From a virus, in the IMG/VR virus record IMGVR_UViG_2799113103_000001, positions 3,854 to 67,853 of that record: a DNA stretch of 64,000 bases. One strand, written 5' to 3'. Each line of letters begins with the position of its first letter. The first letter of the stretch is position 1. Positions 3,812 to 15,359 of this stretch are shown piece after piece. Position numbers and translations under genes: made by a program. The notes under the pieces were generated by a model, which saw only the letters and a list, made by a program, of their open reading frames with translations, had not been told where the DNA came from and did not search any database.

Positions 3812-4402
3812 CTAGGCGCGTCCTTGCGGAGGTTCGGTCTCCGCCTCCGCGTCCGGCTCATCCAGCGGGATTGCGTCCGGCAACTCAGTGGACGCCGCGT
3901 GGAGGCGTTTCAGTTGGCCGCGCAGTCCCAGTACCGCTTCCGTATTGCCCTGCAGGAAGAAATCGGACAACCCAGGTACTCGAAACGCCTTCCTGAATGA
4001 CCAGTACGCGAGGTACGCCCCGCTGGCCACATTGATTGTCACCATGGCCAGCCCGATAACGACTCCGACCGTGTCGCGTTGGTGGGCCATCATACCGACA
4101 AACCGGACGGCGCCTACGCCAGCGGCAATGAGGATGCAGCCGATGAACCCGGTAAGCAGGTCAGAACGCGGGCGGCTATCGGCCATCGCCCGCCCTTTGA
4201 GCCGAACCGCCACCGACTGCCTGAGCCACAGGGCGTGCGCGGCGAGCCCGACAGCGGACAACTTGTCAGCCAGCTCAAGGTCTTTGGATAGAGCCTCCCA
4301 GGTGCGATGCCGCGCACCCCTCCAGGCCGCCAATGCCCATCCAGACAGCAGGGTCACGACCGGTAGCACGACCGCCGTCACGACGGTTGCCTTGTCATCC
4401 AT
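3812..4402 (-). CDS. integral membrane protein (about 4 TM segments)
   Basis: hydrophobic segments VVTAVVLPVVTLLSGWALAAW, FIGCILIAAGVGAV, VGVVIGLAMVTINVASGAYLAYW. Confidence 0.5.
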   Translation of the reverse strand: MDDKATVVTAVVLPVVTLLSGWALAAWRGARHRTWEALSKDLELADKLSAVGLAAHALWLRQSVAVRLKGRAMADSRPRSDLLTGFIGCILIAAGVGAVRFVGMMAHQRDTVGVVIGLAMVTINVASGAYLAYWSFRKAFRVPGLSDFFLQGNTEAVLGLRGQLKRLHAASTELPDAIPLDEPDAEAETEPPQGRA

Positions 4403-4408
4403 AAGCCC

Positions 4409-4597
4409 CTACTTCGGTTCGACGGGTGCGCCCTGCACGTTGAACGCGCACCCGGCGTATCGATCCAAGGCCGCTAGGTCACGGCATCGCTGCTTGGCGT
4501 CGTCCTCGTCCAGCCAGATCGACTCCACCTCGTAATGGTGGATTGCGTCCGAGTCCTCCTCCCAGAACACGGCGATTGCGGCGTACATGGTCGTCAC
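4409..4597 (-). CDS. hypothetical acidic protein 62 aa
   Basis: ORF track; ATGA overlap with 4594-5052. Confidence 0.35.
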   Translation of the reverse strand: MTTMYAAIAVFWEEDSDAIHHYEVESIWLDEDDAKQRCRDLAALDRYAGCAFNVQGAPVEPK

Positions 4598-5052
4598 GCG
4601 GTCTCCCCTCGGTCCTTCGGTGTGATGACCTTAGCCCGGCAGGCGGCGTGCATCGCCAACAACGCCGCCGCGACCAAGGGGCCGTCCGCTACCGGGATTG
4701 GTCGCGGGATGCCGGCCAACGCGAGGCGCCCTGTCTTGTCGAGGCAGACTTCGCCATCTGCCCAGGGCTGCTCGCTCAATGGGACCCTGACCGCCCAGCC
4801 GCCGTAGCCGTCCGGGGCGACGGCGGGCAGCTCCACCAGCACGATTCCCTCGGCCGCGAGGAGCGCCGGGAGCACGGACGCTATCCGCCCGGCCACCTCC
4901 TCCGGCGTGCGTACCTCAACGAAGGCGTCTGGGTCCCGGATGAAGCTCGGGTCGTGGGTGCGGCTCAACAAGTTCGGGATACCCGCGATCACCCGCGCCA
5001 ACACTGTGCCGACTGCCATAGACCACGTTCTACCCGCCGCCACCGACAGCAC
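4594..5052 (-). CDS. hypothetical protein 152 aa
   Basis: ORF track. Confidence 0.4.
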   Translation of the reverse strand: MLSVAAGRTWSMAVGTVLARVIAGIPNLLSRTHDPSFIRDPDAFVEVRTPEEVAGRIASVLPALLAAEGIVLVELPAVAPDGYGGWAVRVPLSEQPWADGEVCLDKTGRLALAGIPRPIPVADGPLVAAALLAMHAACRAKVITPKDRGETA

Positions 5053-5065
5053 CCGACCAGCGCAA

Positions 5066-5482
5066 CTAGTCCCACGGGTTGTCGTACCGCCAGTTGCTCA
5101 TGATGTCGCCGGGGTGCTCCCGGAACCCGCGCCGGGTGATCTGCTGCCACTCCATCGGGATAGGCATGAGCGGGGGCCGGTCGATCAGCAGGTCCAGGTA
5201 ACGCGGCACCTGCTCGAATACCGGTTCCGTCTCGGTGCCCGACCGGTGCTCATCCCAGCCCAGCATGTACTCCGAGGGCCACACGTCCACACGGGAGGAT
5301 GCGAGCACCACCGTCAGGTAGGTGTCGTGCTCATCGACGGACAGCACCCCGCGCGCCCGCGCCGAACGCTGGTCGCGGATGTTCGGGCCCAGCCGCCACC
5401 AGCAGTCCAACGGGCCGGGCACGCGCCGAGCCGATGCCCCACGCGGGGCTGCCTCAATCCTCGCCGGCAGGCGGTCAGGCAT
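5066..5482 (-). CDS. hypothetical protein 138 aa
   Basis: ORF track. Confidence 0.4.
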   Translation of the reverse strand: MPDRLPARIEAAPRGASARRVPGPLDCWWRLGPNIRDQRSARARGVLSVDEHDTYLTVVLASSRVDVWPSEYMLGWDEHRSGTETEPVFEQVPRYLDLLIDRPPLMPIPMEWQQITRRGFREHPGDIMSNWRYDNPWD

Positions 5483-5529
5483 CGCGAACCACCGCTGGAC
5501 ACAGACCCGTGACGGTAAGGTACGGCTCC

Positions 5530-5694
5530 ATGGCGCTCACCATGCACCAACTTCGCGAGATAGCGGCCCGGATAGCGGCGGGAGAATCCCGAGCGAAACT
5601 GGCCGAGGAGTTCGGGGTGGCTCAGGCGTCAATGGACGACTCGCTGGCGTCTATTTCGGCTAGCGTCCGCGCCGTAACGGCGGACGAAGCGTAG
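5530..5694 (+). CDS. small HTH DNA-binding protein (about 54 aa, MALTMHQLREIAARIAAGESRAKLAEEFGV)
   Basis: only credible plus-strand ORF in a 235-bp gap of the minus-strand block; HTH-like sequence; AAGG upstream. Confidence 0.35.
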   Translation: MALTMHQLREIAARIAAGESRAKLAEEFGVAQASMDDSLASISASVRAVTADEA

Positions 5695-5717
5695 ACACGG
5701 GGGCGGGGGTTCGGCTC

Positions 5718-6023
5718 TCACCTGCGCTGCCCTTCCCACTCGCGCAGGCGGTTCCACGCCGTCATCACGAGGTGGTTATCCGCGTCGGTAGGTGTCCCGT
5801 CGAAGATGTGCAGCGCGGTGTAGCCGGGTGTGAAATAGGTGAGGCCGTGCTGGCTGGAGACCCCACCGCCGTAGGCGTCGCCCTCGATCTCCCATTCGAT
5901 GACCGGGCCGCCGTCCGGCGCCACGATAACGATGCGCTCGGTGACTGTCGTGTCCGCGATGCGGTGGGCCAGCTGCACCAGACGCCAAGCAAACCAGCGG
6001 CGGATACCCAACTCCCGGATCAT
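5718..6023 (-). CDS. hypothetical protein about 101 aa (start MIRELG)
   Basis: ATGA overlap with 6020-6349. Confidence 0.35.
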   Translation of the reverse strand: MIRELGIRRWFAWRLVQLAHRIADTTVTERIVIVAPDGGPVIEWEIEGDAYGGGVSSQHGLTYFTPGYTALHIFDGTPTDADNHLVMTAWNRLREWEGQRR

Positions 6024-7996: not shown

Positions 7997-8854
7997 TCAT
8001 CGCCATCTACTTCGACTGACAGCGATGTTGTGTGCGTTTCGGATCGCGCCGGAGAGCCGGGCTTCGGGCGGGGTATCGCGCGTACGCCAGTGCCTTTGGT
8101 ACATATCGACCAACCACGTGTTGATCCGGACCCAGTCCGGCCCATCCGGCAGAGACGCTGTCGAGATGGAGTGCTCCAGACTCCAGGTCAGATACGCCAA
8201 CCAGCCCTTCACATCAGGGAGCGAGGTCTCACCGCGCCGAACGCGGAGCAGCGCATCACGATGGGCCTTGACCATCGGCAGGTGCAGCTTCCCCTCAACA
8301 AGGAGCTGGATACCCTGCATGCCCAGTCGCAGGGCGTGATACGCGTACTTGGTGTCGAAGCCGTACTGTTCGATGAGTTCGGGCCGGTTGGTGTGCCGGT
8401 GGTGAGTGCCCTCCAGCCCTTCACGCTGGGAGTTCAGGTAGCCGAGGAACTTCCGTCCGGCCTGCTTGGTCACGAACAGCTCTGAGGCGGCCTGGAGCTC
8501 GACGCCTAGTTGGGTCTTCACTGTCAGCTCATCGTCGGGTATCCAAAGCATCAGCAGCACTGAGGGATTGCCTTCGGCGGCGAGCCGCGTCCACTTCCGA
8601 AGGCTGTAGACGCACAGATCGAGGTCGCCGGGGCCGGAGCGGGCGCCGTCCGGTTGGGTGCGGTATATGTACTGTTCGAACTTCTCCAAACCGATTACGG
8701 CTTCGGGCGGTTCGATGCATATGCCCATTTCGTCGCGGTCGTCGGCGCCGGTCGTGACACCGTGCAGGCCGGAGCCGACCTGGCCGCGCAGGATCGTGTT
8801 CTCGTCCGCGATAGCGCAGTGCCGCTCCGTGCCGTGGCGCGCTTCGGTACTCAC
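7997..8854 (-). CDS. putative Pol-beta-superfamily nucleotidyltransferase (GSGLHGVTTGADDRDE motif), 285 aa
   Basis: GS-x9-DDRDE signature near the N-terminus; GTG start with GTGA overlap to the upstream small gene. Confidence 0.4.
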   Translation of the reverse strand: MSTEARHGTERHCAIADENTILRGQVGSGLHGVTTGADDRDEMGICIEPPEAVIGLEKFEQYIYRTQPDGARSGPGDLDLCVYSLRKWTRLAAEGNPSVLLMLWIPDDELTVKTQLGVELQAASELFVTKQAGRKFLGYLNSQREGLEGTHHRHTNRPELIEQYGFDTKYAYHALRLGMQGIQLLVEGKLHLPMVKAHRDALLRVRRGETSLPDVKGWLAYLTWSLEHSISTASLPDGPDWVRINTWLVDMYQRHWRTRDTPPEARLSGAIRNAHNIAVSRSRWR

Positions 8855-9021
8855 AGTCCACGCTCCAGGTGCTTCTTGAATTGCTTCTTGTCCATGACGA
8901 TTCCCGTGGTCCAGTCCGGTGTGGCAATGGTTTTCGCTAGCGCGCAGTCCGTTTCAGTCGTGAACGGGCCAACGTGCTTCCCGTTGAGCCGGTTCACGAT
9001 ATGGAAAGGGCCGCTACTCAT
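8851..9021 (-). CDS. small protein 56 aa (MSSGPFHIVNRLNG...)
   Basis: own translation; ATGA overlap with the 9018 stop and GTGA overlap with the nucleotidyltransferase start. Confidence 0.4.
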   Translation of the reverse strand: MSSGPFHIVNRLNGKHVGPFTTETDCALAKTIATPDWTTGIVMDKKQFKKHLERGL

Positions 9022-9239
9022 TGGGAGGTGGCCGTTCTACCGTCGATGATTTTCTGGATGAGTTGGGGGCTGCACTTCACGGCGGTGGCGAGGGTGGCGT
9101 GGGTCCACTTCTCGCGCTCGTTCGTCCAGAGTTCCCGTACCAGCCGGTCGCGCTGGCTTCGGTGCTGGCTGGCGGAGTCACGGTCTTCCCCGGCCAGCCG
9201 GTGGTGCTCACGGGCTTGCTGTGCCCTCGGGTCCATCAA
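9018..9239 (-). CDS. small HTH protein 73 aa
   Basis: ORF track; HTH-like THATLATAVKCSPQLIQKI. Confidence 0.4.
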   Translation of the reverse strand: MMDPRAQQAREHHRLAGEDRDSASQHRSQRDRLVRELWTNEREKWTHATLATAVKCSPQLIQKIIDGRTATSQ

Positions 9240-9670
9240 CGGCCCCCGATGTCCACGCGGCGGCGGGATATCTTCTCGATCGCGGTGATGGCTTCCCCTC
9301 CGGGGTCTTCGATCTCGAAGATGCCGTGCTCAGCCGCTTCACGGCCTGATTCGAACAGCGGCACTGGACTCACGTACTCGAATGCGGCCTGTACGTCCTC
9401 AGGAGACAGCGAACCCGTGACGGCGCCCATGCGAATTGCGAGTAGTTCCTCGCCGCCGTGACAGCCGATCCAGCCTGCGCATAGCCGGGCCGCTTCGTCG
9501 GCGACGTCAGTCTGGTGGCACAGGAACAGGCCGGTCGGCTGCTCCGAGGTCGGAGCGTCGTACGCGATGAGCTTCTGGTACTCGGTGGCATGCCACACGC
9601 CGCTGGGAACGTCCTCCCGGTAGGGGCACGACGCGCAGGGGCGCGGCGCGGGGCCGCCGACCCTGCCCAT
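9236..9670 (-). CDS. hypothetical protein 144 aa (Cys-rich N-terminus)
   Basis: ORF track; coupled to the rsr stop. Confidence 0.4.
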   Translation of the reverse strand: MGRVGGPAPRPCASCPYREDVPSGVWHATEYQKLIAYDAPTSEQPTGLFLCHQTDVADEAARLCAGWIGCHGGEELLAIRMGAVTGSLSPEDVQAAFEYVSPVPLFESGREAAEHGIFEIEDPGGEAITAIEKISRRRVDIGGR

Positions 9671-9672
9671 CG

Positions 9673-11376
9673 TTACAGGTCACCTCGGGCGAAGTCCGAG
9701 ATGAGCTGCGGCACCGCGCTATCGAACCCGGACACGTCGAGCTGGCGCGGGTCCGAAGGATCTGCGATGGTCTGCCGGCCGCCGGTCATCGCGACAACCA
9801 TCAGGCTGGTATCCAGGCCGAGCTTGTTCCGGTACTCGGTGAGCGCCTGGTGCGGGTGGATACCGCCGTACCAGGTCTCGTTGTCGGTGAGGATCACGAC
9901 GGCGTCGTAGGGGCGGAGCTGCGCCTTGGCCCAAACCATCGGGAGCGCGCAGTCCGTCGCACCCATGGGGAGGCGTGCCGTGTACTGGCACACGTCATCG
10001 AGGCGGCGGCGCGGCGTGATGTCCAGCTCCGTGATGCCGGATGAGCGGAAGCTCCCTCCGGCCCCAGCCGTGAAGCCGATCATGTCGTGATTGGGCTCAA
10101 CGTTGGCGGTCACGAGGGCGAGCGCGGCGGCGGCCTCGCGGCACGTCAGCGGCATACCCGAGATCGCGGCGCCCATGGAGCCGGAGATGTCCAGCGCGAG
10201 CAGGGTCCGCTTGCCCGAGGGCTCGACGGCGCCGTAGGCGCTGTAGAACGCGGCGTCGAGCGCGTCAACGATGTGCCGGTTCGGCGTCCAGGTGGACTCA
10301 CCGCGCGCCGAACGCCCGGAGGCATAGGTGCGCTGCGCGACAAGGACATTGATCGGGTGGACGCGGCCCTTCCGTAGCCGGTCGGCGTCCTGGAGCTGCG
10401 CAGCGACCCGGCTGCCGAGCTGACCGTTCAGCACGCCGAGGCGGGTTAGGCGGGGCAGCTGCCGCATGAGTGCGGTCTGCGGGAGGCCGTGCTCGATCAG
10501 GGCCTCCCAGATCACGGGCTGCGTAAGGGCCTTGTCGGGGAATGCCTCCCATGGCAGGCCGTTGCCCCGGCGGATGATCGCCAGCCACTCCTTGGCGGTG
10601 GTAGCGCGCTGCGCGGCCTCGTAGTCCGCGATGATGGCGAGCGGGTGCCCGTCAGCCAGTTCCACGTCGGGCAGCTTGGGGCGCTTGGGGTTGCGCTCAC
10701 CGGCCTTGAGCTGCTCAGGGGTCAGCTCCCGCACCGAGACATCGGTGTAGTCGTTGAGACCCTTGCCGACAGCCCAGTTGAACGCCAGGCGGCGGGCCGG
10801 GTCGCTGGTGGTGGGGCCGCTGAGCCGGAGCATGTCGCGGTGGGTCCAGCCGTCACGCTGCCGGTACTTGACCAGCTGGTAGGCGAGCCGGTCCACGGGC
10901 TTGTCCAGGTACCAGCTGGAGACGGCGCGCTTCATCGCCGGTCCCCAGCCACGGAACTGCTCCATGTACTTGGTGAACAGGTACAGGTGGGTGGCGGTGC
11001 GCGCGACTCGGGGCAGCGCGGCGGCGGCGGCACGGCGGCCATCGACGTTCTCGGCGGCCGACGCGATAGCGAGCGCGAACAGGGCCGGGTTCTGCTTGGG
11101 GGCGCGTCCGGCCTCGGAGACCTCAACGATCTTCTGCACGAGGGTGACGGGATCGGTTGCGGCGAGCCGGATCACGACATCGGCGGCGTCACGGGTCAGG
11201 TCCTCGGCGGAGGTGTAGTACGTGCCGCCGGTCGTGCCGAGGGTCAGGAACCGGTGGAGCCGGGTCCAGTCGTCGGCCTGGAAGGTGTAGCCCCCGGCGG
11301 CGTTCTTGACCTGGCGCGGGTCCGCCTTCTGGGATTGGGGGGTGCGCCGCGTGCTGATCGAGGATAGAACGTCCAC
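9673..11376 (-). CDS. rsr: Ro60-like protein Rsr (TROVE domain plus vWA domain with DISGSMG MIDAS motif), 567 aa
   Basis: RLHRFLTLGTTGGTYY and PALFALAIA resemble Ro60 hallmark segments; C-terminal vWA with DxSxS; GTG start with AAGGAG 6 nt upstream. Confidence 0.8.
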   Translation of the reverse strand: MDVLSSISTRRTPQSQKADPRQVKNAAGGYTFQADDWTRLHRFLTLGTTGGTYYTSAEDLTRDAADVVIRLAATDPVTLVQKIVEVSEAGRAPKQNPALFALAIASAAENVDGRRAAAAALPRVARTATHLYLFTKYMEQFRGWGPAMKRAVSSWYLDKPVDRLAYQLVKYRQRDGWTHRDMLRLSGPTTSDPARRLAFNWAVGKGLNDYTDVSVRELTPEQLKAGERNPKRPKLPDVELADGHPLAIIADYEAAQRATTAKEWLAIIRRGNGLPWEAFPDKALTQPVIWEALIEHGLPQTALMRQLPRLTRLGVLNGQLGSRVAAQLQDADRLRKGRVHPINVLVAQRTYASGRSARGESTWTPNRHIVDALDAAFYSAYGAVEPSGKRTLLALDISGSMGAAISGMPLTCREAAAALALVTANVEPNHDMIGFTAGAGGSFRSSGITELDITPRRRLDDVCQYTARLPMGATDCALPMVWAKAQLRPYDAVVILTDNETWYGGIHPHQALTEYRNKLGLDTSLMVVAMTGGRQTIADPSDPRQLDVSGFDSAVPQLISDFARGDL

Positions 11377-11400
11377 CGTGTGCTCCTTGCTGGGTTAGGT

Positions 11401-11477
11401 GGCGCGGGCGTGTGAGTGACCGCCGGGGTTCATCCAGTTGCGAGGTTGGGGTAACCGACCGTCGTCCTGCTCGCGCC
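11401..11477 (-). ncRNA. Y-RNA-like unit A, stem-only
   Basis: RNA reads GGCGCGAGCAGGACGACGGUCGGUUACC-21 nt-CCCCGGCGGUCACUCACACGCCCGCGCC; terminal GGCGCG/CGCGCC pairing; shares the conserved stem strands of units B-E. Confidence 0.45.
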
Positions 11478-11491
11478 AAAGGGGTTTGGGT

Positions 11492-11612
11492 GATGTGGGC
11501 GTGTATGTGCTGACCGGGATTTCGCTTTTACACCCGCACCGGGGCACGGGCGACAGGGGTCGAACCTGCATTACCAATTGAGTGATAACCGACCGAGCGT
11601 CCTGCTCACATC
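11492..11612 (-). ncRNA. Y-RNA-like unit B with a T-arm-like hairpin (GCAGGUUCGACCCCUGU) but no recognisable D-arm
   Basis: terminal GAUGUG/CACAUC pairing; conserved GAGCAGGACGC..GGUCGGUUA and CCGGUCAGCACAUACACGCCC strands. Confidence 0.45.
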
Positions 11613-11647
11613 GAAAAGCTATGGAGTTATTGATAATTCGCGTAGGC

Positions 11648-11786
11648 GGCGTGGGCGTGTGATTGCTGACCGACCGTTTAGCGTGCTGCCGTTACACCAC
11701 GGAGCGCCTACGGCGCGCCCGCCGGGATTCGAACCCGGACTACCTCTTTTCGACAGAGATAACCGACCTGCGTCCTGCTCACACCA
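11648..11786 (-). ncRNA. Y-RNA-like unit C with a permuted tRNA-like module
   Basis: T-arm CCGGGUUCGAAUCCCGG; acceptor-like helix GGGCGCGCC-GUA-GGCGCUCC; D-arm-like CGUGGUGUAACGGCAGCACG; terminal GGUGUG/CACGCC pairing. Confidence 0.5.
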
Positions 11787-11805
11787 TCTACTGCGAAGCC
11801 TTGGG

Positions 11806-11944
11806 GATGATGCGGGCGTGTGTGTGCTGACCGGGGTTAAGCGCTCTACCGACTGAGCTACAACCACTTTCGTGGCTGACGGGACTCGAACCCGCGACCT
11901 CTCCATTACAAGTGGTAACCGACCTGCGTCCTGCTCGCATCATC
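11806..11944 (-). ncRNA. Y-RNA-like unit D with a permuted tRNA-like module
   Basis: T-arm GCGGGUUCGAGUCCCGU, then 7-bp acceptor helix CAGCCAC-GAAA-GUGGUUG, then canonical D-arm UAGCUCAGUCGGUAGAGC; terminal GAUGAUGCG/CGCAUCAUC pairing. Confidence 0.55.
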
Positions 11945-11962
11945 AATGTGAAGTTGTATCCG

Positions 11963-12137
11963 GGATGGCGTGGGCGTGTGAGGTGCTTACCGGCGTTGAT
12001 CTTGGATCAATGCATTCGGCCGCTCTGCCACGTTCCGCCCGATGAAAGCCCGAAGCTCTTTCAGGCGGCCCGGCGGGATTCGAACCCGCGATCTGATGAT
12101 TTTCAGATAACCGACTCGCGTCCTGCTCACGCCATCC
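11963..12137 (-). ncRNA. Y-RNA-like unit E with a permuted tRNA-like module
   Basis: T-arm GCGGGUUCGAAUCCCGC; acceptor helix closed by a UUCG-capped hairpin; terminal 10-bp GGAUGGCGUG/CACGCCAUCC pairing; extra hairpin UUGAUC-CAA-GAUCAA. Confidence 0.55.
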
Positions 12138-12140
12138 ATG

Positions 12141-12290
12141 TTTTGTTGACTACGCCATGAACTATACCTCAGTAATGCCTGTTCAGGGCATATTTTTTGA
12201 GGAAATGTTGATTCGCTGGAAGGTGACTCCCGTACCGGGGAAAGTATGCCGTCGCGGGCCTCGACCTGGCTACCGAATATCGGTATCAGT
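12141..12290 (-). promoter_or_regulatory. AT-rich intergenic region upstream of the Y-RNA array; candidate promoter; contains a plus-oriented hairpin plus T-run (ATGCC-TGTTCAG-GGCAT-ATTTTTTG)
   Basis: AT-richness 12141-12240; no ORF; hairpin followed by T6. Confidence 0.3.
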
Positions 12291-13031
12291 TCAGTGAGGT
12301 ACTTCGTCCAGGCCGTTCATCTGCAGCGTCGCGACCATCGCTTCCACCACCCGCTCCGCGGACCAGTCGTCGGGAGCCGAGATCAGCGTTCCCTCATTCT
12401 GCTTCGACATGGTGAGCCCATCCGCAACCTGCGTCACGGCGGCGGTCTGCGCGTTGATCCAGGTGCGGTAGCCAACCCGGATCTTCCAGTTGCCGCGCCG
12501 CGCGACGCGGTTCGCTTCCCTGTCAGTGAGCATCAGGTACGAGGGGCGCCATGTGGAAGCGACGGCTGTGACCACTGCGTCACCCACTTCGCTGGTGAGA
12601 CCGCCCGGTGTGATCTCCCGCAGGTCCACCTTGAGATGGTGTGCGGGCACTCTGCCTCCGAAACTGACATATCCCGCGCTCACCCACACCCTCACCTCAA
12701 CTGACGGACCAGCGCCCATCAAAACCATCGAATAGCCCTCACCGGACAGGGGTTCACCGTCTTCGCCGTCTGGAAGCGCCTCTCGCACTGGGTTTCTACG
12801 GACTATGCCGGCCAATACCTCCGGCGAGCCCTCCCACCGATCACCCCTTGCGGTATCCCATCGGGCGATACCGAGAATCCCCTGCAACTGCGCCAGCAGC
12901 GCATCCGCGCGCCCGGCGATCCACTCTGGTGTTTCACTCTTCGCGAGCCAGACGGCGGTCACGAACGCGTATCCCGACCAGACCGGTGAGGGTGCATGTG
13001 TTGCGGTCACAGCTTCCAACTTTACTTTCAT
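12291..13031 (-). CDS. putative immunity protein for the upstream toxin (246 aa)
   Basis: immediately downstream of the toxin gene with ATGA overlap; no recognisable enzymatic motif. Confidence 0.45.
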   Translation of the reverse strand: MKVKLEAVTATHAPSPVWSGYAFVTAVWLAKSETPEWIAGRADALLAQLQGILGIARWDTARGDRWEGSPEVLAGIVRRNPVREALPDGEDGEPLSGEGYSMVLMGAGPSVEVRVWVSAGYVSFGGRVPAHHLKVDLREITPGGLTSEVGDAVVTAVASTWRPSYLMLTDREANRVARRGNWKIRVGYRTWINAQTAAVTQVADGLTMSKQNEGTLISAPDDWSAERVVEAMVATLQMNGLDEVPH

Positions 13032-14935
13032 GGCTTCTCGGGGGTGTAGATCACTCGAACGTCAGGGAACCCACCTTCATCCAGGAGATCACGAATTATC
13101 GCCGCACTCGAAGGATTAGCGACGTGCCATTCAAGTGCTGCCCCTTCTGGTAGGGCACGCAGCTGCCTCTGGGCTTCAGCGAGGAGGCCGTTCTCAATGT
13201 TCACTGTCCACGGCTTACCGGGGCTCTCGAACAGGGGCGCGTAGTTGTGTTTCGCGTCGAGGAAAACCTCCTGACCGCCCCGCTCGATGGGTCCGCTGTC
13301 GAACCTGACCACCTGGCCAGTATCGGGGTTCGTCACGACGTACTCCGGTATGCGCCCGTCTGGGGTCCGCTCGATACCCGTGATCTGGGACTGGTAGTCC
13401 ATCCAGGGCTTCTCCGGGCCGCGATTGACGTGCTCCCAACCTGGCGTGGGGTCACCCTTGGTCCAGGTCGGCTCGGGAGTATGGGGCGGCCACCCACCCG
13501 GGTGATGCGGATCTCCCGACGTGTAGTGCTGCCCCACGCTGGGGTCGAACTGATCGGGTGTCGGTAGTTGGTGCTGGGTCAGGGGTGGAGAGTGGTCGCC
13601 GACCGTAGGTGCTGGATGATCGACCGTGGGGGCGAGATGGGTTGCTTCGCTTGGGGGCTCTGCGGTGTGTGCGGGGGCTGGTGTGTCGTGGAGTGCGCCG
13701 GGGGCCGGAAGATCCGGGTGCATGCTGCCCAGATGCGCAGCAGACCCTTCAAGTCCAGCACGGGGCAACAGGCCCTCGGGACCACCTGCCATTAGCGCCC
13801 CACCATCGACCAGCCTTTCCCCGACATATTGGCCGGGATTTTCGATGTTGTGCTTGATGCCTTCGGCTATGTCGGCGCCAGGTGGGGTGGTCATCTGGTG
13901 CTTGAAGGATTCCCATTCACGCCTACCGGCCTCTTCGTTAGCCTCCCAAAAACCCTTGTCGCCCAACCCCAAGCGGTCCCGCAGGTCAGTGAAGGGGGCG
14001 GCCAACTTATCGACGCCCTTGTCGATGCCCTCGGAAATGTTCGTCTTGAAACGCTCCGCAGCCGATGGTTTGTGTTCTTCCGGTGGCTTGTCGTTGCGAT
14101 TGAGGTAGGTGACGCTTTCGCCCAGGCCGCCCACCTTGGTCTTGTCGATGGTGTCCTTGGCGAACGGGCCGTATTGCGGGGCATTCGGGTCGGCAGCAGC
14201 GGTGGCAGCGGTCGGGGTGGTCGCGGGATTTTTGATGTGCTCCAGCTTGTCGCCGAGCGTCCCGGCGCCGGGATCGATGGAGGCCGGATCGGTGGCCTTC
14301 GGGTACCAGTCCTTGTAGAAGTTCGCGGGCTGGGCGCTCGGGTCGCCGGGTTTCGGGGTCGCGGCGTCGCGCAGGGCTTTGCGCCCGTCCACGAGTGCCG
14401 TTTTGGGGTTGGCGCAGCCGGTGATCTTCTGGGCCGCCGCGTCGGCCTGTCCCTTGAGGGTTTGGCAGCCCTTCTCCCACTTGGCGACGTGGTCCTTGAT
14501 CAGGCGTTCGGTTTCGGCGACGTGCTCGCGGTTTCGGGCTATCGAATCGTCGCTCTCGCCTTCGGCCGGGTGGTAGTCGCACTTGAAGTTCTGGTCGATC
14601 GAGACGCCCTTGTCGGCGTGCGCCAGCACCCTCTCGATGAGGTTCTGCCCGCCGGTCAGATTGGGCACTACCTCGTAGGTGATGGTGGCCGTCGCCAGCT
14701 TGACGGCGTCCTCGGCGGTGTCGTCGGTGTTGTCGGAGACGCGGCAATCGGTGGACGCCCCCTCGTAGGACGCGGTCGCGGTGTGCCCGGTCCACTCCGT
14801 GCCATCGGGGCTGCCTGCCCAACGCTTGTAGTCGTCGTAGATTTCCTTGAACTGCTGAGTCTGCGGACGCCACGTATCGACCACCGCCATGTAGTCATTG
14901 GCCTTGACCGCCATGAACTCATCGAGCGTCGTCAC
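13028..14935 (-). CDS. polymorphic toxin: N-terminal WXG100-like domain (YKRWAGSPDG), long Pro/Thr-rich linker, C-terminal PD-(D/E)xK-like nuclease domain (RIPEY..RFDSG..QEVFLDAKHN)
   Basis: WXG motif at about residue 35; low-complexity PT-rich middle; C-terminal E..D..ExxxDAK pattern; start GTG at 14935 or ATG at 14914. Confidence 0.55.
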   Translation of the reverse strand: MTTLDEFMAVKANDYMAVVDTWRPQTQQFKEIYDDYKRWAGSPDGTEWTGHTATASYEGASTDCRVSDNTDDTAEDAVKLATATITYEVVPNLTGGQNLIERVLAHADKGVSIDQNFKCDYHPAEGESDDSIARNREHVAETERLIKDHVAKWEKGCQTLKGQADAAAQKITGCANPKTALVDGRKALRDAATPKPGDPSAQPANFYKDWYPKATDPASIDPGAGTLGDKLEHIKNPATTPTAATAAADPNAPQYGPFAKDTIDKTKVGGLGESVTYLNRNDKPPEEHKPSAAERFKTNISEGIDKGVDKLAAPFTDLRDRLGLGDKGFWEANEEAGRREWESFKHQMTTPPGADIAEGIKHNIENPGQYVGERLVDGGALMAGGPEGLLPRAGLEGSAAHLGSMHPDLPAPGALHDTPAPAHTAEPPSEATHLAPTVDHPAPTVGDHSPPLTQHQLPTPDQFDPSVGQHYTSGDPHHPGGWPPHTPEPTWTKGDPTPGWEHVNRGPEKPWMDYQSQITGIERTPDGRIPEYVVTNPDTGQVVRFDSGPIERGGQEVFLDAKHNYAPLFESPGKPWTVNIENGLLAEAQRQLRALPEGAALEWHVANPSSAAIIRDLLDEGGFPDVRVIYTPEKP

Positions 14936-14945
14936 ACCCGCGCCC

Positions 14946-15266
14946 CTATGCGCGCTTGGGCGGCTGATAGATGGTGGGCAGGCTGCTATAACCGGCCGCC
15001 AGGGAACTCTCCGTGATCGCGAAAGCCTGATGGGCCTCGTCATCGAAGTCAGCGATCGTGTTCAACCGGGCAGCGCCGATCCGCTTCACATCCGCGATAG
15101 CCTTCGACACCCCATGCAGCGCTGCCAACCCCGGATCAGCACCAGCAGGCGCCCCAACATCAGCCGGAATGCTTTTCGTAAGCTCACCGGCAAGTGTCCG
15201 CAGATGCGGGCCGAGCTTGCCCAACGCCGCAAGATCAAACTTGAGAACGTTCTCATCGCCCGACAT
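14946..15266 (-). CDS. small alpha-helical protein (106 aa), possible ESX/WXG-type partner of the toxin; no canonical WXG
   Basis: GAAGGGGG RBS 4 nt before ATG; position directly upstream of the toxin. Confidence 0.4.
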   Translation of the reverse strand: MSGDENVLKFDLAALGKLGPHLRTLAGELTKSIPADVGAPAGADPGLAALHGVSKAIADVKRIGAARLNTIADFDDEAHQAFAITESSLAAGYSSLPTIYQPPKRA

Positions 15267-15359
15267 GACACCCCCTTCGGCAACCAACCGTGTGATTGCC
15301 AGCACACTACAGGAGCAGTAGCGGGTTCCGCAGGGGGAGTTGCCTGGGGTAGGTGTTCG

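What the first reader, a model, noticed from the sequence alone, without database searches (positions are those of the whole stretch)
9673..12140. Ro60 (Rsr) orthologue with five tandem, diverged Y-RNA-like genes carrying circularly permuted tRNA-like modules
The 567-aa protein at 9673-11376 has RLHRFLTLGTTGGTYY and PALFALAIA (TROVE/Ro60 hallmarks) and a vWA domain with a DISGSMG MIDAS motif.

Directly upstream on the same strand lie five units: 11401-11477, 11492-11612, 11648-11786, 11806-11944 and 11963-12137.
- Each unit is closed by complementary termini, for example GGAUGGCGUG/CACGCCAUCC in unit E and GAUGAUGCG/CGCAUCAUC in unit D.
- All share the conserved strands GAGCAGGACGC..GGUCGGUUA (5' side) and CCGGUCAGCA..CACACGCCC (3' side). 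This is the expected Ro-binding helix.

Units C, D and E embed tRNA elements in permuted order. The order is T-arm (GGGUUCGAAUCCC), acceptor 3' strand, a closing loop, acceptor 5' strand, then D-arm (UAGCUCAGUCGGUAGAGC in unit D). The closing loop is GAAA in D, GUA in C and a UUCG-capped hairpin in E.

Unit A is a bare stem. Unit B has only a T-arm-like hairpin. Together the five look like a decay series of one module.

Bacterial YrlA-type Y RNAs that mimic tRNA next to rsr are established. What is unusual here is a five-copy tandem array of mutually diverged units inside a phage early operon, followed by rsr and a nucleotidyltransferase. A naive scan for GGTTCGAATCC here would mis-call a tRNA cluster.
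Basis: partly seen in the sequence, partly recalled or inferred. Interest (0 to 1): 0.85.

Follow-up and report, generated by a model that had tools for sequence, protein, structure and literature searches.

The report
Prophage Ro60 gene with five Y RNAs
A mycobacterial prophage carries a Ro60 (Rsr) RNA-binding protein gene preceded by five small tRNA-mimicking "Y RNA" genes; this is a large example of a known bacterial and phage system, not a new kind of element.

Summary
On the minus strand, 9673-11376 encodes a Ro60/Rsr protein (TROVE plus Ro60-vWA domains). Five tandem units lie directly upstream at 11401-12137.

A covariance model built only from Y-RNA units of unrelated loci finds exactly these five units in the 64 kb. 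E-values run from 1e-23 to 8e-6, and the next hit has E=2. The terminal helix, the inner helix and the T, acceptor and D stems all show strong covariation across about 80-120 homologous units.

Units E, D and C are YrlA-type, with a permuted tRNA-like head. Unit B is YrlB-like and unit A is minimal. This matches the published Mycobacterium smegmatis YrlA/YrlB-rsr locus, and YrlA was already reported in 22 phages.

- Arrays of 2-4 units are common in Actinobacteria.
- Five units occur in this prophage lineage, and six in two M. abscessus prophages.
- The units are conserved classes, not a decay series.

Three features look new:
- The tRNA-like head of unit C is swapped between near-identical relatives.
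- All units of these prophages share a variant Ro-binding motif (GCAGGAC).
- Unit E has a class-II-like D arm.

Expression, processing and function are inferred only.

The parts
12138..12205 (-). Putative promoter/operator: palindrome ATGCCCTGAACAGGCAT (12175-12191), followed by a -10-like TATAGT about 20 nt before unit E
   Evidence: These 70 nt are nearly invariant in five related prophages, while the sequence further upstream diverges. The sigma-70 consensus scan found no promoter. The promoter role is inferred, not shown.
11963..12137 (-). Unit E (175 nt). YrlA-type Y RNA with a 10-bp terminal stem, V hairpin, T arm, a long acceptor stem capped by a UUCG hairpin, a D arm with a long loop (class-II-like), and an extra hairpin UUGAUCCAAGAUCAA
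   Evidence: Model R1 scores 48.1 bits, E=2.6e-9. The fold has z=-4.5. The unit is 93-100% identical in relatives. The class-II resemblance rests on my own knowledge of tRNA-Ser/Leu D arms and was not tested.
11806..11944 (-). Unit D (139 nt). Canonical YrlA-type Y RNA: 9-bp terminal stem, V hairpin, T arm, 7-bp acceptor stem closed by GAAA, and D arm UAGCUCAGUCGGUAGAGC
   Evidence: Model R1 scores 109.1 bits, E=1.3e-23. Rfam YrlA RF02553 scores 36.9 bits, E=3e-6, below the gathering score of 69. The fold has z=-2.0. It matches the complement of the M. smegmatis YrlA-5' probe at 20 of 23 bases.
11648..11786 (-). Unit C (139 nt). YrlA-type Y RNA whose internal V/T/acceptor/D module differs from that of all close relatives
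   Evidence: Model R1 scores 65.6 bits, E=2.1e-13. It is only about 80% identical to relatives whose flanking units are 92-100% identical. Three alleles of the inner module share the same Ro-binding strands. Its acceptor-5'/D-arm part aligns with phage Farewell tRNA-Trp.
11492..11612 (-). Unit B (121 nt). YrlB-like Y RNA with a terminal stem, V hairpin, T-arm-like hairpin and a second hairpin, but no D arm
   Evidence: Model R1 scores 47.2 bits, E=4.4e-9, with the D-arm positions deleted. It is 96-98% identical in relatives and 90-92% identical in M. abscessus prophages. M. smegmatis YrlB also has only a T arm.
11401..11478 (-). Unit A (78 nt). Minimal Y RNA: Ro-binding helix plus a small apical region
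   Evidence: Model R1 scores 33.4 bits, E=7.7e-6, with 70 inner model positions deleted. Minimal units lie next to rsr in Farewell, Nappy, FuzzBuster and many bacterial loci.
9673..11376 (-). rsr, the Ro60 orthologue (567 aa). Its Shine-Dalgarno AAGGAG at 11383-11388 lies 13 nt after unit A
   Evidence: Pfam TROVE and vWA_Ro60. PDB matches 2NVO, 9NEN and 1YVP at about 1e-95 to 1e-98. The MIDAS D-x-S-x-S is invariant in the alignment of six phage Ro60 proteins. The NCBIfam Rsr equivalog scores 473 bits, below its cut-off of 900.
9236..9670 (-). DUF6283 protein (144 aa), starting 2 nt after the rsr stop codon
   Evidence: Pfam PF19800, 1.6e-38. Among the 91 loci it occurs at this position only in the window lineage.
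9018..9239 (-). Small conserved ORF (73 aa, weak HTH-like match) that follows rsr in many Actinobacteria and phages
   Evidence: tblastn finds it directly downstream of rsr in 31 loci. Pfam HTH_31 matches only at E=0.0045.
7997..8854 (-). RlaP-family nucleotidyltransferase (285 aa)
   Evidence: Pfam PF10127, 8.3e-34. PHROG 388 nucleotidyltransferase. Homologues sit just upstream of the Y RNAs and rsr in three Nocardioides loci.

Best explanation
This is the Ro60 (Rsr) ribonucleoprotein cassette of a mycobacterial prophage.

Five Y-RNA genes sit in tandem directly in front of rsr:
- three YrlA-type tRNA mimics (E, D, C)
- one YrlB-like RNA (B)
- one minimal Y RNA (A)

What the sequence analysis shows:
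- The gene identities.
- The shared two-part helix: a terminal stem, an internal loop carrying the conserved 5' motif GCAGGAC, and a 9-bp inner stem ending in CGGUUA.
- The permuted T-arm / closed acceptor stem / D-arm heads.
- Conservation of the whole array in related prophages.

What is inferred by analogy with M. smegmatis, Salmonella and Deinococcus:
- One transcript starts at a conserved promoter-like element just upstream of unit E. It runs through the five units into rsr, because only 13 nt separate unit A from the rsr ribosome-binding site.
- Host RNases cut out the individual RNAs of 78-175 nt.
- Rsr binds the conserved helix of each RNA on the outside of its ring.
- The different heads act as tethers or gates. 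They connect Rsr to tRNA-recognising or RNA-degrading host factors such as PNPase, RNase P, the CCA-adding enzyme and modification enzymes.
- Unit D has a 7-bp acceptor stem. [quoted passage not shown]
- Together with the linked RlaP 3'-nucleotidyltransferase, the cassette most likely handles damaged or misfolded structured RNA, tRNA above all, for the benefit of the phage or the lysogen.
For: Protein identity:
- Pfam TROVE and vWA_Ro60.
- Solved Ro60/Rsr structures at about 1e-95 to 1e-98.

RNA identity:
- Rfam YrlA hits unit D at E=3e-6.
- Model R1, built from 31 units outside this lineage, finds exactly the five units in the window.
- In 91 related loci R1 gives 210 hits, all on the rsr strand.

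Structure:
- RNAalifold on the independent MAFFT alignment predicts 33 pairs, 22 of them with compensatory changes.
- On 79 model-aligned units, 95.7% of cells are paired against 73.3% in shuffles. There are 544 double-change cells against 153±12, and 73-108 with slid partners. All five helices are supported.
- Terminal stem over 119 units: 313 double-change cells against 102±8.
- Inner-stem extension: 78% paired against 55±1.5%.

Linkage:
- The 5' motif occurs at 1.04 per kb just upstream of rsr and at 0.054 per kb elsewhere in the loci.

Conservation:
- The same five-unit array lies in front of a Ro60 that is 92-98% identical at the protein level in five IMG/VR prophage contigs.
- A six-unit array occurs in two M. 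abscessus prophages.

Experimental precedent:
[quoted passage not shown] YrlA is cut by RNase P and receives CCA.
- Unit D matches the complement of the YrlA-5' probe at 20 of 23 bases, and unit E shares a 15-nt block with the complement of the YrlA-3' probe.

RNA-repair context:
- RlaP adds one or two nucleotides to damaged RNA 3' ends.
- RlaP is linked to the Y RNAs and rsr in Nocardioides too.
Against: - No expression data exist. The consensus scan found no sigma-70 promoter or intrinsic terminator on the relevant strand, so the transcript model rests on conservation and spacing only.
- No unit reaches Rfam's YrlA gathering score: D scores 36.9 against 69, and C and E give no hit.
- The 5' motif GCAGGAC departs at two positions from the published GNCGAAN0-1G.
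- Single-sequence folds of A, B and C are no more stable than shuffles, with z from 0 to -0.8.
- The covariation alignments were partly fitted. The terminal-stem partner was chosen by complementarity plus motif, and alignment A5 was aligned to the model.
- No RNA ligase or PNPase gene is nearby, so the effector is unknown.
- The function of bacterial YrlA is itself unresolved in the literature.
Confidence: 0.85

Rival explanations
1. The tRNA-like heads work mainly as decoys or sensors for host or competitor tRNA-targeting nucleases (anticodon nucleases, toxin RNases). Rsr only stabilises them, and several different heads broaden the range of nucleases covered.
For: - The three full units carry different heads: ordinary, Trp-like and long-D-loop.
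- The head of unit C is replaced between near-identical phages, as expected under an arms race.
- Toxin cassettes sit directly upstream of the array. Here it is a polymorphic toxin cassette; in prophiGD43A-5 it is BrnT/antitoxin.
- The linked RlaP repairs damaged tRNA 3' ends.
Against: - The heads have no anticodon loop where most such nucleases cut.
- There is no direct evidence for any nuclease target.
- The same architecture occurs in chromosomal loci of free-living bacteria.
- The known partner in other species is PNPase.
Confidence: 0.1
2. The units are circularly permuted tRNA genes. Processing would turn them into functional, chargeable tRNAs, as happens for permuted tRNA genes in some algae and archaea.
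For: - The order T arm - acceptor 3' strand - loop - acceptor 5' strand - D arm is that of permuted pre-tRNAs.
- M. smegmatis YrlA is opened by RNase P and receives CCA.
- Unit D has a 7-bp acceptor stem.
Against: - No anticodon arm occupies the position of the Ro-binding helix.
- No bacterial splicing endonuclease and ligase pathway for circularisation is known.
- ARAGORN finds no tRNA in the window.
- Units A and B lack most tRNA parts yet are conserved.
- All units keep the Ro-binding strands.
Confidence: 0.02
3. The region is a decaying cluster of tRNA genes or a duplicated repeat with no function of its own, as in the first reader's 'decay series'.
For: - The units have progressively fewer tRNA parts from E to A.
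- Real tRNA genes precede the Y RNAs in phage Farewell.
- A published model derives YrlA from dimeric tRNA transcripts.
Against: - Units A, B, D and E are 91-100% identical in five relatives. B, D and A are 85-92% identical in more distant prophages, more conserved than rsr DNA at 78%.
- Compensatory changes keep every helix.
- Each class recurs in other lineages.
- All model hits lie on the rsr strand.
Confidence: 0.02
4. The array acts mainly in cis as a structured 5' leader of the rsr mRNA. Rsr would bind the Y-like modules in its own leader and so autoregulate its synthesis or stability.
For: - Unit A ends 13 nt before the rsr Shine-Dalgarno sequence, with no terminator between them.
- In M. 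smegmatis the Y RNAs and rsr come from one precursor.
Against: - Five units and 740 nt are far more than such a leader needs.
- In Sorangium and Chondromyces the units lie downstream of rsr.
- The M. smegmatis RNAs accumulate as discrete Rsr-bound species.
- This reading can coexist with the best explanation rather than replace it.
Confidence: 0.05

Closest known systems
Mycobacterium smegmatis YrlA/YrlB-rsr locus (Chen et al. 2014, RNA 20:1715; PMC4201824)
   Same: - The Y RNAs lie upstream of rsr on the same strand.
- One RNA has the full T / acceptor / D head with a 7-bp acceptor stem, and one has only a T arm.
- There is sequence-level similarity: 20 of 23 bases with the YrlA-5' probe complement, and the CACACGCCCAC 3' strand.
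- The published RNAs are processed from one precursor.
   Different: - There are five units here instead of two.
- The extra classes are a minimal unit, a long-acceptor-stem unit with a long-D-loop arm, and a variable-head unit.
- The 5' motif is GCAGGAC rather than GCCGGA/GCCGAA.
- The locus is prophage-borne.
- DUF6283 and RlaP lie downstream.
- There are no experimental data for this locus.
Salmonella Typhimurium YrlA (Rfam RF02553; structure of the tRNA-like domain, bioRxiv 10.1101/312249)
   Same: The RNA is modular. A Ro-binding stem is formed by the 5' and 3' ends, and the head is an L-shaped tRNA mimic with the T arm 5' of the D arm and a closed acceptor stem.
   Different: - The Rfam model reaches only 36.9 bits on unit D (gathering score 69) and misses C and E.
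- The Salmonella RNAs sit in the RtcR-controlled rtcBA RNA-repair operon. No RtcB or RtcA gene was seen among the genes scanned near the array here.
Deinococcus radiodurans Yrn1/Yrn2-Rsr-PNPase complex (RYPER)
   Same: Several small RNAs are encoded upstream of rsr. The Y RNA tethers Rsr to an exoribonuclease. This is the mechanism adopted here by analogy.
   Different: - The Yrn1 head has a different orientation and is considered an independent lineage.
- PNPase binding was not tested here.
Ro60 plus YrlA loci of mycobacteriophages (ET08 and other Bxz1-like cluster C phages) and Thermus phage phiLo Ro60 with Yrl1/Yrl2 (PMC12135203)
   Same: A phage-encoded Ro60 has Y-RNA-like genes directly upstream. 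Nappy, a cluster C phage, has three units and phiLo has two.
   Different: - The window lineage has five units and is a temperate prophage related to M. abscessus prophages.
- Its array carries three full tRNA-like heads.
M. abscessus prophages prophiGD43A-5 and prophiT37-1 (GenBank MW584167, OQ417969)
   Same: - They are the closest sequenced relatives in the phage collection, with about 75% DNA identity over the locus.
- They have the same array layout with D-, B- and A-type units, and the same GCAGGAC-type motif.
   Different: - They have six units, including one class that is absent here.
- A BrnT/antitoxin pair lies upstream instead of a polymorphic-toxin cassette.
- They have no DUF6283 or RlaP.
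- Their arrays are unannotated, apart from a false tRNA-Thr call on one unit.

Membership tests
Ro60/Rsr (TROVE-vWA ring proteins) | TROVE (HEAT-repeat ring) domain followed by the Ro60-type vWA domain, both above the curated Pfam thresholds | tested here: met
   PF05731 scores 176 bits (cut-off 23) and PF25045 scores 191 bits (cut-off 27.7). Full-length matches to 2NVO, 9NEN and 1YVP.
Ro60/Rsr (TROVE-vWA ring proteins) | MIDAS motif D-x-S-x-S in the vWA domain | tested here: met
   LDISGSMG read from the sequence. D396, S398 and S400 are invariant in the alignment of six phage Ro60 proteins.
Ro60/Rsr (TROVE-vWA ring proteins) | NCBIfam 'RNA-binding protein Rsr' equivalog cut-off | tested here: not met
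   NF041674 scores 473 bits against a cut-off of 900. The protein is a clear homologue but outside NCBI's strict equivalog set.
YrlA-type bacterial Y RNA (Chen 2014; Rfam RF02553) | Encoded within 4 kb of a Ro60 orthologue and on the same strand | tested here: met
   All five units lie 25-760 nt upstream of rsr on the minus strand.
YrlA-type bacterial Y RNA (Chen 2014; Rfam RF02553) | The 5' and 3' ends pair into a stem whose 5' strand carries the motif GNCGAAN0-1G | tested here: inconclusive
   The stem is present and covaries. At the homologous position the motif reads GCAGGAC(G), with two departures. Related loci read GCCGAAG or GCCGGAG. Whether Rsr accepts the variant was not tested.
YrlA-type bacterial Y RNA (Chen 2014; Rfam RF02553) | T-arm-like stem-loop, then a closed acceptor-like stem-loop, then a D-arm-like stem-loop, in that order | tested here: met
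   Met for units C and D, where all pairs are standard in the R1 alignment. Met for E with a long acceptor stem and an atypical D arm. Not met for B, which has no D arm, or for A, which has none of the three. B and A are therefore Y RNAs but not YrlA.
YrlA-type bacterial Y RNA (Chen 2014; Rfam RF02553) | Rfam gathering score (69 bits) | tested here: not met
   Unit D scores 36.9 bits at E=3e-6. Units C and E give no hit at E<=10. The actinobacterial model R1 scores them at 109, 66 and 48 bits.
YrlA-type bacterial Y RNA (Chen 2014; Rfam RF02553) | Accumulates as a discrete small RNA bound by Rsr, with tRNA-type modifications or RNase P/CCA processing | not testable with these tools
   Shown only for M. 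smegmatis and Salmonella.
Canonical tRNA genes | Cloverleaf in the normal order with an anticodon arm, as called by tRNA finders | tested here: not met
   ARAGORN finds none in 64 kb. The single Rfam tRNA hit (31.2 bits against a gathering score of 29) joins two neighbouring units across a 93-nt insert.
RlaP nucleotidyltransferase (PF10127) | Pfam model above the gathering score, and linkage to RNA-repair genes | tested here: met
   117.8 bits against a cut-off of 23. Linked here to rsr and the Y RNAs, and likewise in three Nocardioides loci. No RNA ligase was seen nearby.

The most novel reading that the evidence does not exclude
The prophage encodes a private Ro60 particle that does not cross-talk with the host's own Rsr and Y RNAs, and that carries a set of exchangeable tRNA-mimic heads.

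- All 42 units of this lineage and its M. abscessus relatives carry GCAGGA at the Ro-binding motif. All 102 units elsewhere carry GCCG(G/A)A.
- The heads are of ordinary, Trp-like and class-II-like types.
- The head of unit C is a hot-swappable cassette under diversifying selection.
- The particle would capture, decoy or repair specific tRNA classes attacked during phage-host or bacterium-bacterium conflict.
Probability: 0.12. Interest if true: 0.75.

Novelty: new member of a known kind. Interest (0 to 1): 0.4.

Why it matters
It adds a well-defined natural system for studying what bacterial Y RNAs do.
- It is a temperate mycobacteriophage lineage with five or six different Y RNAs in front of one Ro60.
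- Close relatives differ in only one head, and M. smegmatis and M. abscessus offer genetic tools.

It also has practical value for annotation.
- These arrays are unannotated in public phage records.
- They trigger false tRNA calls, both from ARAGORN in prophiGD43A-5 and from Rfam's tRNA model here.
- The current Rfam YrlA model misses most actinobacterial units.

The lineage-wide change in the Ro-binding motif and the swapped head of unit C give two testable questions. One is how Ro60 tells its RNAs apart. The other is what the tRNA-like head is for.

Tried and rejected
- A naive caller (CGGTTA plus any complementary run of 6 nt or more) gave many false units in this GC-rich DNA. It was replaced by a motif-anchored search and a covariance model.
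- Two of my own regular expressions were wrong and were corrected.
- Taking the rightmost inner-stem anchor mis-registered many units. It was replaced by the leftmost anchor, and only the unanchored positions 5-9 were scored.
- The first genome scan with the single protein found nothing. The alignment-based scan worked.
- Rfam YrlA at the gathering threshold found nothing.
- BLAST of the inner module of unit C against phages gave only weak Streptomyces-phage matches and no donor tRNA.
- The idea that the V hairpin is a general anticodon-loop mimic did not hold. Only 10 distinct units have the CCA-CU-NNN-RA-UGG form, and MFE loop sizes vary widely.
- The sigma-70 and terminator scans gave nothing useful.
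- The reviews by Sim and Wolin (2018), Sim et al. (2020) and Boccitto and Wolin (2019) are not held in the library. I therefore could not check whether they mention larger arrays. The supplementary tables of Chen 2014 are not held either.
- The M. abscessus prophage papers do not mention Ro or Y RNAs.

Full report
WHAT IS THERE

All features lie on the minus strand. ORF 9673-11376 encodes 567 aa from a GTG start. Its AAGGAG ribosome-binding site lies 6 nt upstream of the start.

It matches several Ro60 resources:
- Pfam TROVE at 1.7e-51 and the Ro60-type vWA domain at 1.7e-56.
- The solved structures of D. radiodurans Rsr, human Ro60 and Xenopus Ro60, at about 1e-95 to 1e-98.
- The NCBIfam Rsr model at 473 bits, which is below that model's strict equivalog cut-off of 900.

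Five tandem units fill 11401-12137. They end 13 nt before the rsr ribosome-binding site. Repeat analysis confirms the shared 5' and 3' strands and the complementary termini.

ARAGORN finds no tRNA in the window. Rfam's tRNA model gives one hit just above its gathering score. That hit is a chimera of the D arm of unit D and the T arm of unit C, with 93 nt in between.

ARE THE UNITS Y RNAs?

Rfam's YrlA model matches unit D at 36.9 bits and E=3e-6. This is below its gathering score of 69, and the model misses the other units.

I therefore collected related loci from four sources:
- Two M. abscessus prophages, phage Farewell, and cluster C, Microbacterium and Gordonia phages.
- Five IMG/VR prophage contigs whose Ro60 is 92-98% identical at the protein level.
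- 80 bacterial loci found with an alignment of six phage Ro60 proteins.

From 31 YrlA-type units taken only from loci outside the window's lineage I made a MAFFT alignment. RNAalifold predicts the following on it:
- a 7+2-bp terminal stem
- an 8-bp inner stem
- a 5-bp T stem
- a 7-bp acceptor-like stem
- a 4-bp D stem

Of the 33 predicted pairs, 22 have compensatory changes.

| Unit | Bits | E-value |
|---|---|---|
| D | 109 | 1.3e-23 |
| C | 65.6 | 2.1e-13 |
| E | 48.1 | 2.6e-9 |
| B | 47.2 | 4.4e-9 |
| A | 33.4 | 7.7e-6 |

The next hits have E=2.2 and 5.6. In the model alignments:
- D and C have every stem.
- E has a 46-nt insertion in the acceptor stem and a poorly aligned D arm.
- B lacks the D arm.
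- A lacks all 70 inner positions.

Across the 91 loci the model gives 210 hits at E<=1e-3, every one on the strand of rsr.

COVARIATION

- Terminal stem over 119 distinct units. 88.6% of cells pair against 66.9% in shuffles. There are 313 double-change cells against 102.5±7.6, and 44-72 with slid partners. The caveat is that I chose the 3' partner by complementarity plus the conserved ACACG/ACATG context.
- Inner stem. The first four pairs (TCGG/CCGG) served as the anchor, so I scored only positions 5-9. 78% pair against 54.8±1.5% in shuffles and 21-45% when slid. There are 127 double-change cells against 38±5. Position 10 is almost never paired, which marks the internal loop.
- 79 model-aligned full units, including window units D and C. 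95.7% pair against 73.3% in shuffles. There are 544 double-change cells against 153±12, and 73-108 when slid. All seven acceptor-stem pairs covary. This alignment was fitted to the model and so leans towards it. The independent MAFFT and RNAalifold result points the same way.
- Single-sequence folding is convincing only for E (z=-4.5) and D (z=-2.0). It is not for A, B and C.

COMPARISON WITH WHAT IS KNOWN

Chen et al. 2014 reported the following:
- YrlA RNAs lie next to Ro60 genes in 254 bacteria and 22 bacteriophages, including mycobacteriophages.
- The RNAs have a T arm, a closed acceptor-like stem and a D arm, in that order.
- In M. smegmatis, a 147-nt YrlA and a YrlB with only a T arm are bound by Rsr.
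- YrlA is cut by RNase P and receives CCA.

The structure paper describes YrlA as resembling a circularly permuted tRNA. It also discusses an origin from dimeric tRNA transcripts.

Sequence comparison ties the window units to these RNAs. Unit D matches the complement of the M. smegmatis YrlA-5' probe at 20 of 23 bases. Unit E shares a 15-nt identical block with the complement of the YrlA-3' probe.

The permuted order and the rsr linkage are therefore established facts about this family. Units D and B correspond to YrlA and YrlB.

RlaP (PF10127) is a known RNA-repair-associated 3'-nucleotidyltransferase. Its homologues lie just upstream of the Y RNAs and rsr in three Nocardioides loci.

HOW UNUSUAL IS FIVE?

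The motif count, which is a lower bound, gives these numbers of units per locus:

| Units per locus | Loci |
|---|---|
| 0 | 31 (mostly non-actinobacterial loci with other motif variants) |
| 1 | 12 |
| 2 | 22 |
| 3 | 14 |
| 4 | 5 |
| 5 | 6 (the window and its five relatives) |
| 6 | 2 (the M. abscessus prophages) |

The model search agrees. No bacterial locus has more than four units, while several Mycobacterium, Nocardia, Segniliparus, Chloroflexota and Armatimonadota loci do have four. By eye, Nappy has three units, FuzzBuster three, Cashline two and Farewell two.

Multi-unit arrays are therefore normal. Five or six is the top of the observed range and is confined to this prophage group.

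The held literature does not describe such arrays. I could not read the main reviews or the supplementary tables of Chen 2014.

NOT A DECAY SERIES

Against the five close relatives:
- Units E, D, B and A are 91-100% identical, and most spacers are 94-100% identical.
- Against the M. abscessus prophages, whose rsr DNA is 78% identical, units B, D and A are still 85-92% identical. That makes them more conserved than the protein gene.

Minimal and T-arm-only units recur in many lineages. These are maintained classes.

THREE FEATURES THAT MAY BE NEW

1. Unit C is only about 80% identical to its counterpart in every close relative. The alignment shows three alleles of the inner V/T/acceptor/D module: the window, L007, and L008/L010/L011. 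All sit between identical Ro-binding strands. The acceptor-5'/D-arm part of the window allele aligns with a phage tRNA-Trp. I found no donor sequence.

2. All 42 units of the window lineage and the M. abscessus prophages read (G/A)CAGGA(C/T) at the Ro-binding motif. All 102 units elsewhere read (G/A)CCG(G/A)A, or GCCGAT in two units. The search pattern allowed either base. This replaces a conserved C:G pair with an A-G mismatch in every paralogue. Possible causes are gene conversion within arrays, co-evolution with the prophage Rsr, or expansion after the change. I cannot tell these apart.

3. Unit E combines three things:
   - A very long acceptor stem.
   - A D arm with a 3-bp stem and an 11-nt loop (GCA-GAGCGGCCGAA-UGC). 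To my knowledge this is the class II (Ser/Leu/Tyr) pattern.
   - An extra conserved hairpin between the D arm and the 3' Ro strand.

CONTEXT

The window is a mycobacterial prophage. It is related to prophiGD43A-5 and prophiT37-1 and has lysin, integrase and RecE-like matches elsewhere in the window.

Upstream of the array lies a polymorphic-toxin / WXG / probable immunity cassette. In prophiGD43A-5 the same position holds a BrnT toxin-antitoxin pair. Downstream of rsr come DUF6283, a small conserved ORF, a 56-aa ORF and RlaP.

The 70 nt before unit E are almost invariant in the relatives. They hold a 17-nt palindrome and a TATAGT. No consensus promoter or terminator was detected.

VERDICT

- Mechanistically it is best read as an Rsr-Y RNA particle system of the M. 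smegmatis type, expanded to five RNAs.
- Expression, processing, Rsr binding and biological role are inferred.
- Novelty is modest: a new, large member of a known kind, with a few variant features worth testing.

Noticed in passing
window 9018-9239 (-); also L001 6471-6686, L002 6018-6209, L012 4371-4565, L039 4087-4293 and others: A protein of about 70 aa is encoded directly after rsr in 31 loci, in phages and in Mycobacterium, Nocardia, Nocardioides, Actinomyces and other genomes. It has only a weak HTH_31 match and is annotated 'helix-turn-helix' in Farewell. It looks like a conserved partner or regulator of the rsr/Y-RNA module.
   Followed up: partly
window 11401-12137; L001 3850-4722; L003 2848-3720; L007-L011 arrays: Every Y-RNA unit in this prophage lineage and in the M. 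abscessus prophages has A instead of C in the Ro-binding motif: GCAGGA against GCCGGA/GCCGAA. The count is 42 of 42 here against 0 of 102 elsewhere. This may indicate co-evolution with the prophage Rsr, or gene conversion within arrays.
   Followed up: partly
window 11648-11786 versus L007 2586-2730 and L008 1702-1848: The inner tRNA-like module of unit C exists in three different versions among phages that are otherwise 92-100% identical across the array. The flanking Ro-binding strands are unchanged.
   Followed up: partly
L001 3998-4076 (GenBank MW584167, gene 51): The annotated tRNA-Thr(tgt) of prophiGD43A-5 is a false call on the 5' two-thirds of a YrlA-type unit. ARAGORN reads the V hairpin CCA-CUUGUAA-UGG as an anticodon arm. 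Ten distinct D-type units have this 7-nt CU-NNN-RA loop with a variable middle triplet. The pattern is not general.
   Followed up: yes
window 12175-12191 and about 12158-12163 (-): A perfect 17-nt palindrome ATGCCCTGAACAGGCAT is followed by TATAGT. Both are invariant in five relatives, whereas the sequence further upstream diverges. They may be an operator and a -10 element for the array. The scan tool lists the palindrome only as a plus-strand terminator-like site.
   Followed up: partly
window 12291-15305 (-): A polymorphic-toxin cassette lies directly upstream of the array. It has a 671-aa protein with a weak Tox-REase-5 C-terminus, a WXG-like 119-aa protein and a 246-aa probable immunity gene. 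The 246-aa gene is only 56% identical in L008 and L009, and tblastn found no match in the other relatives. prophiGD43A-5 has BrnT/antitoxin at this position. The site seems to be a variable conflict-gene island.
   Followed up: partly
window 9236-9670 (-): A DUF6283 gene is inserted between rsr and the small conserved ORF, starting 2 nt after the rsr stop codon. Among the 91 loci it occurs only in this prophage lineage.
   Followed up: no
L020 1288-2094, L022 1122-1931, L031 1279-2103: RlaP homologues (43-45% identical) lie immediately upstream of the Y RNAs and rsr in three Nocardioides genomes. The RlaP - Y RNA - rsr linkage is therefore not peculiar to the phage.
   Followed up: partly
L001 3850-3972, L003 2848-2970, L012 2268-2390: There is a further Y-RNA class. 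It has the Ro-binding stem and an inner segment containing CGUAGUUCAAGU-AGAACGCC, and no T or D arm. It occurs in the M. abscessus prophages and in a Mycobacterium MAG, but is absent from the window.
   Followed up: no
L072, L082, L085, L086, L088 (Sorangium, Chondromyces) at about 4370-5980; L059 at 210-1994: In myxobacterial loci the model hits lie downstream of rsr rather than upstream. A Chloroflexota MAG (L059) has six T-arm-to-D-arm signatures upstream of rsr. These could be a tRNA cluster or a large YrlA array.
   Followed up: no
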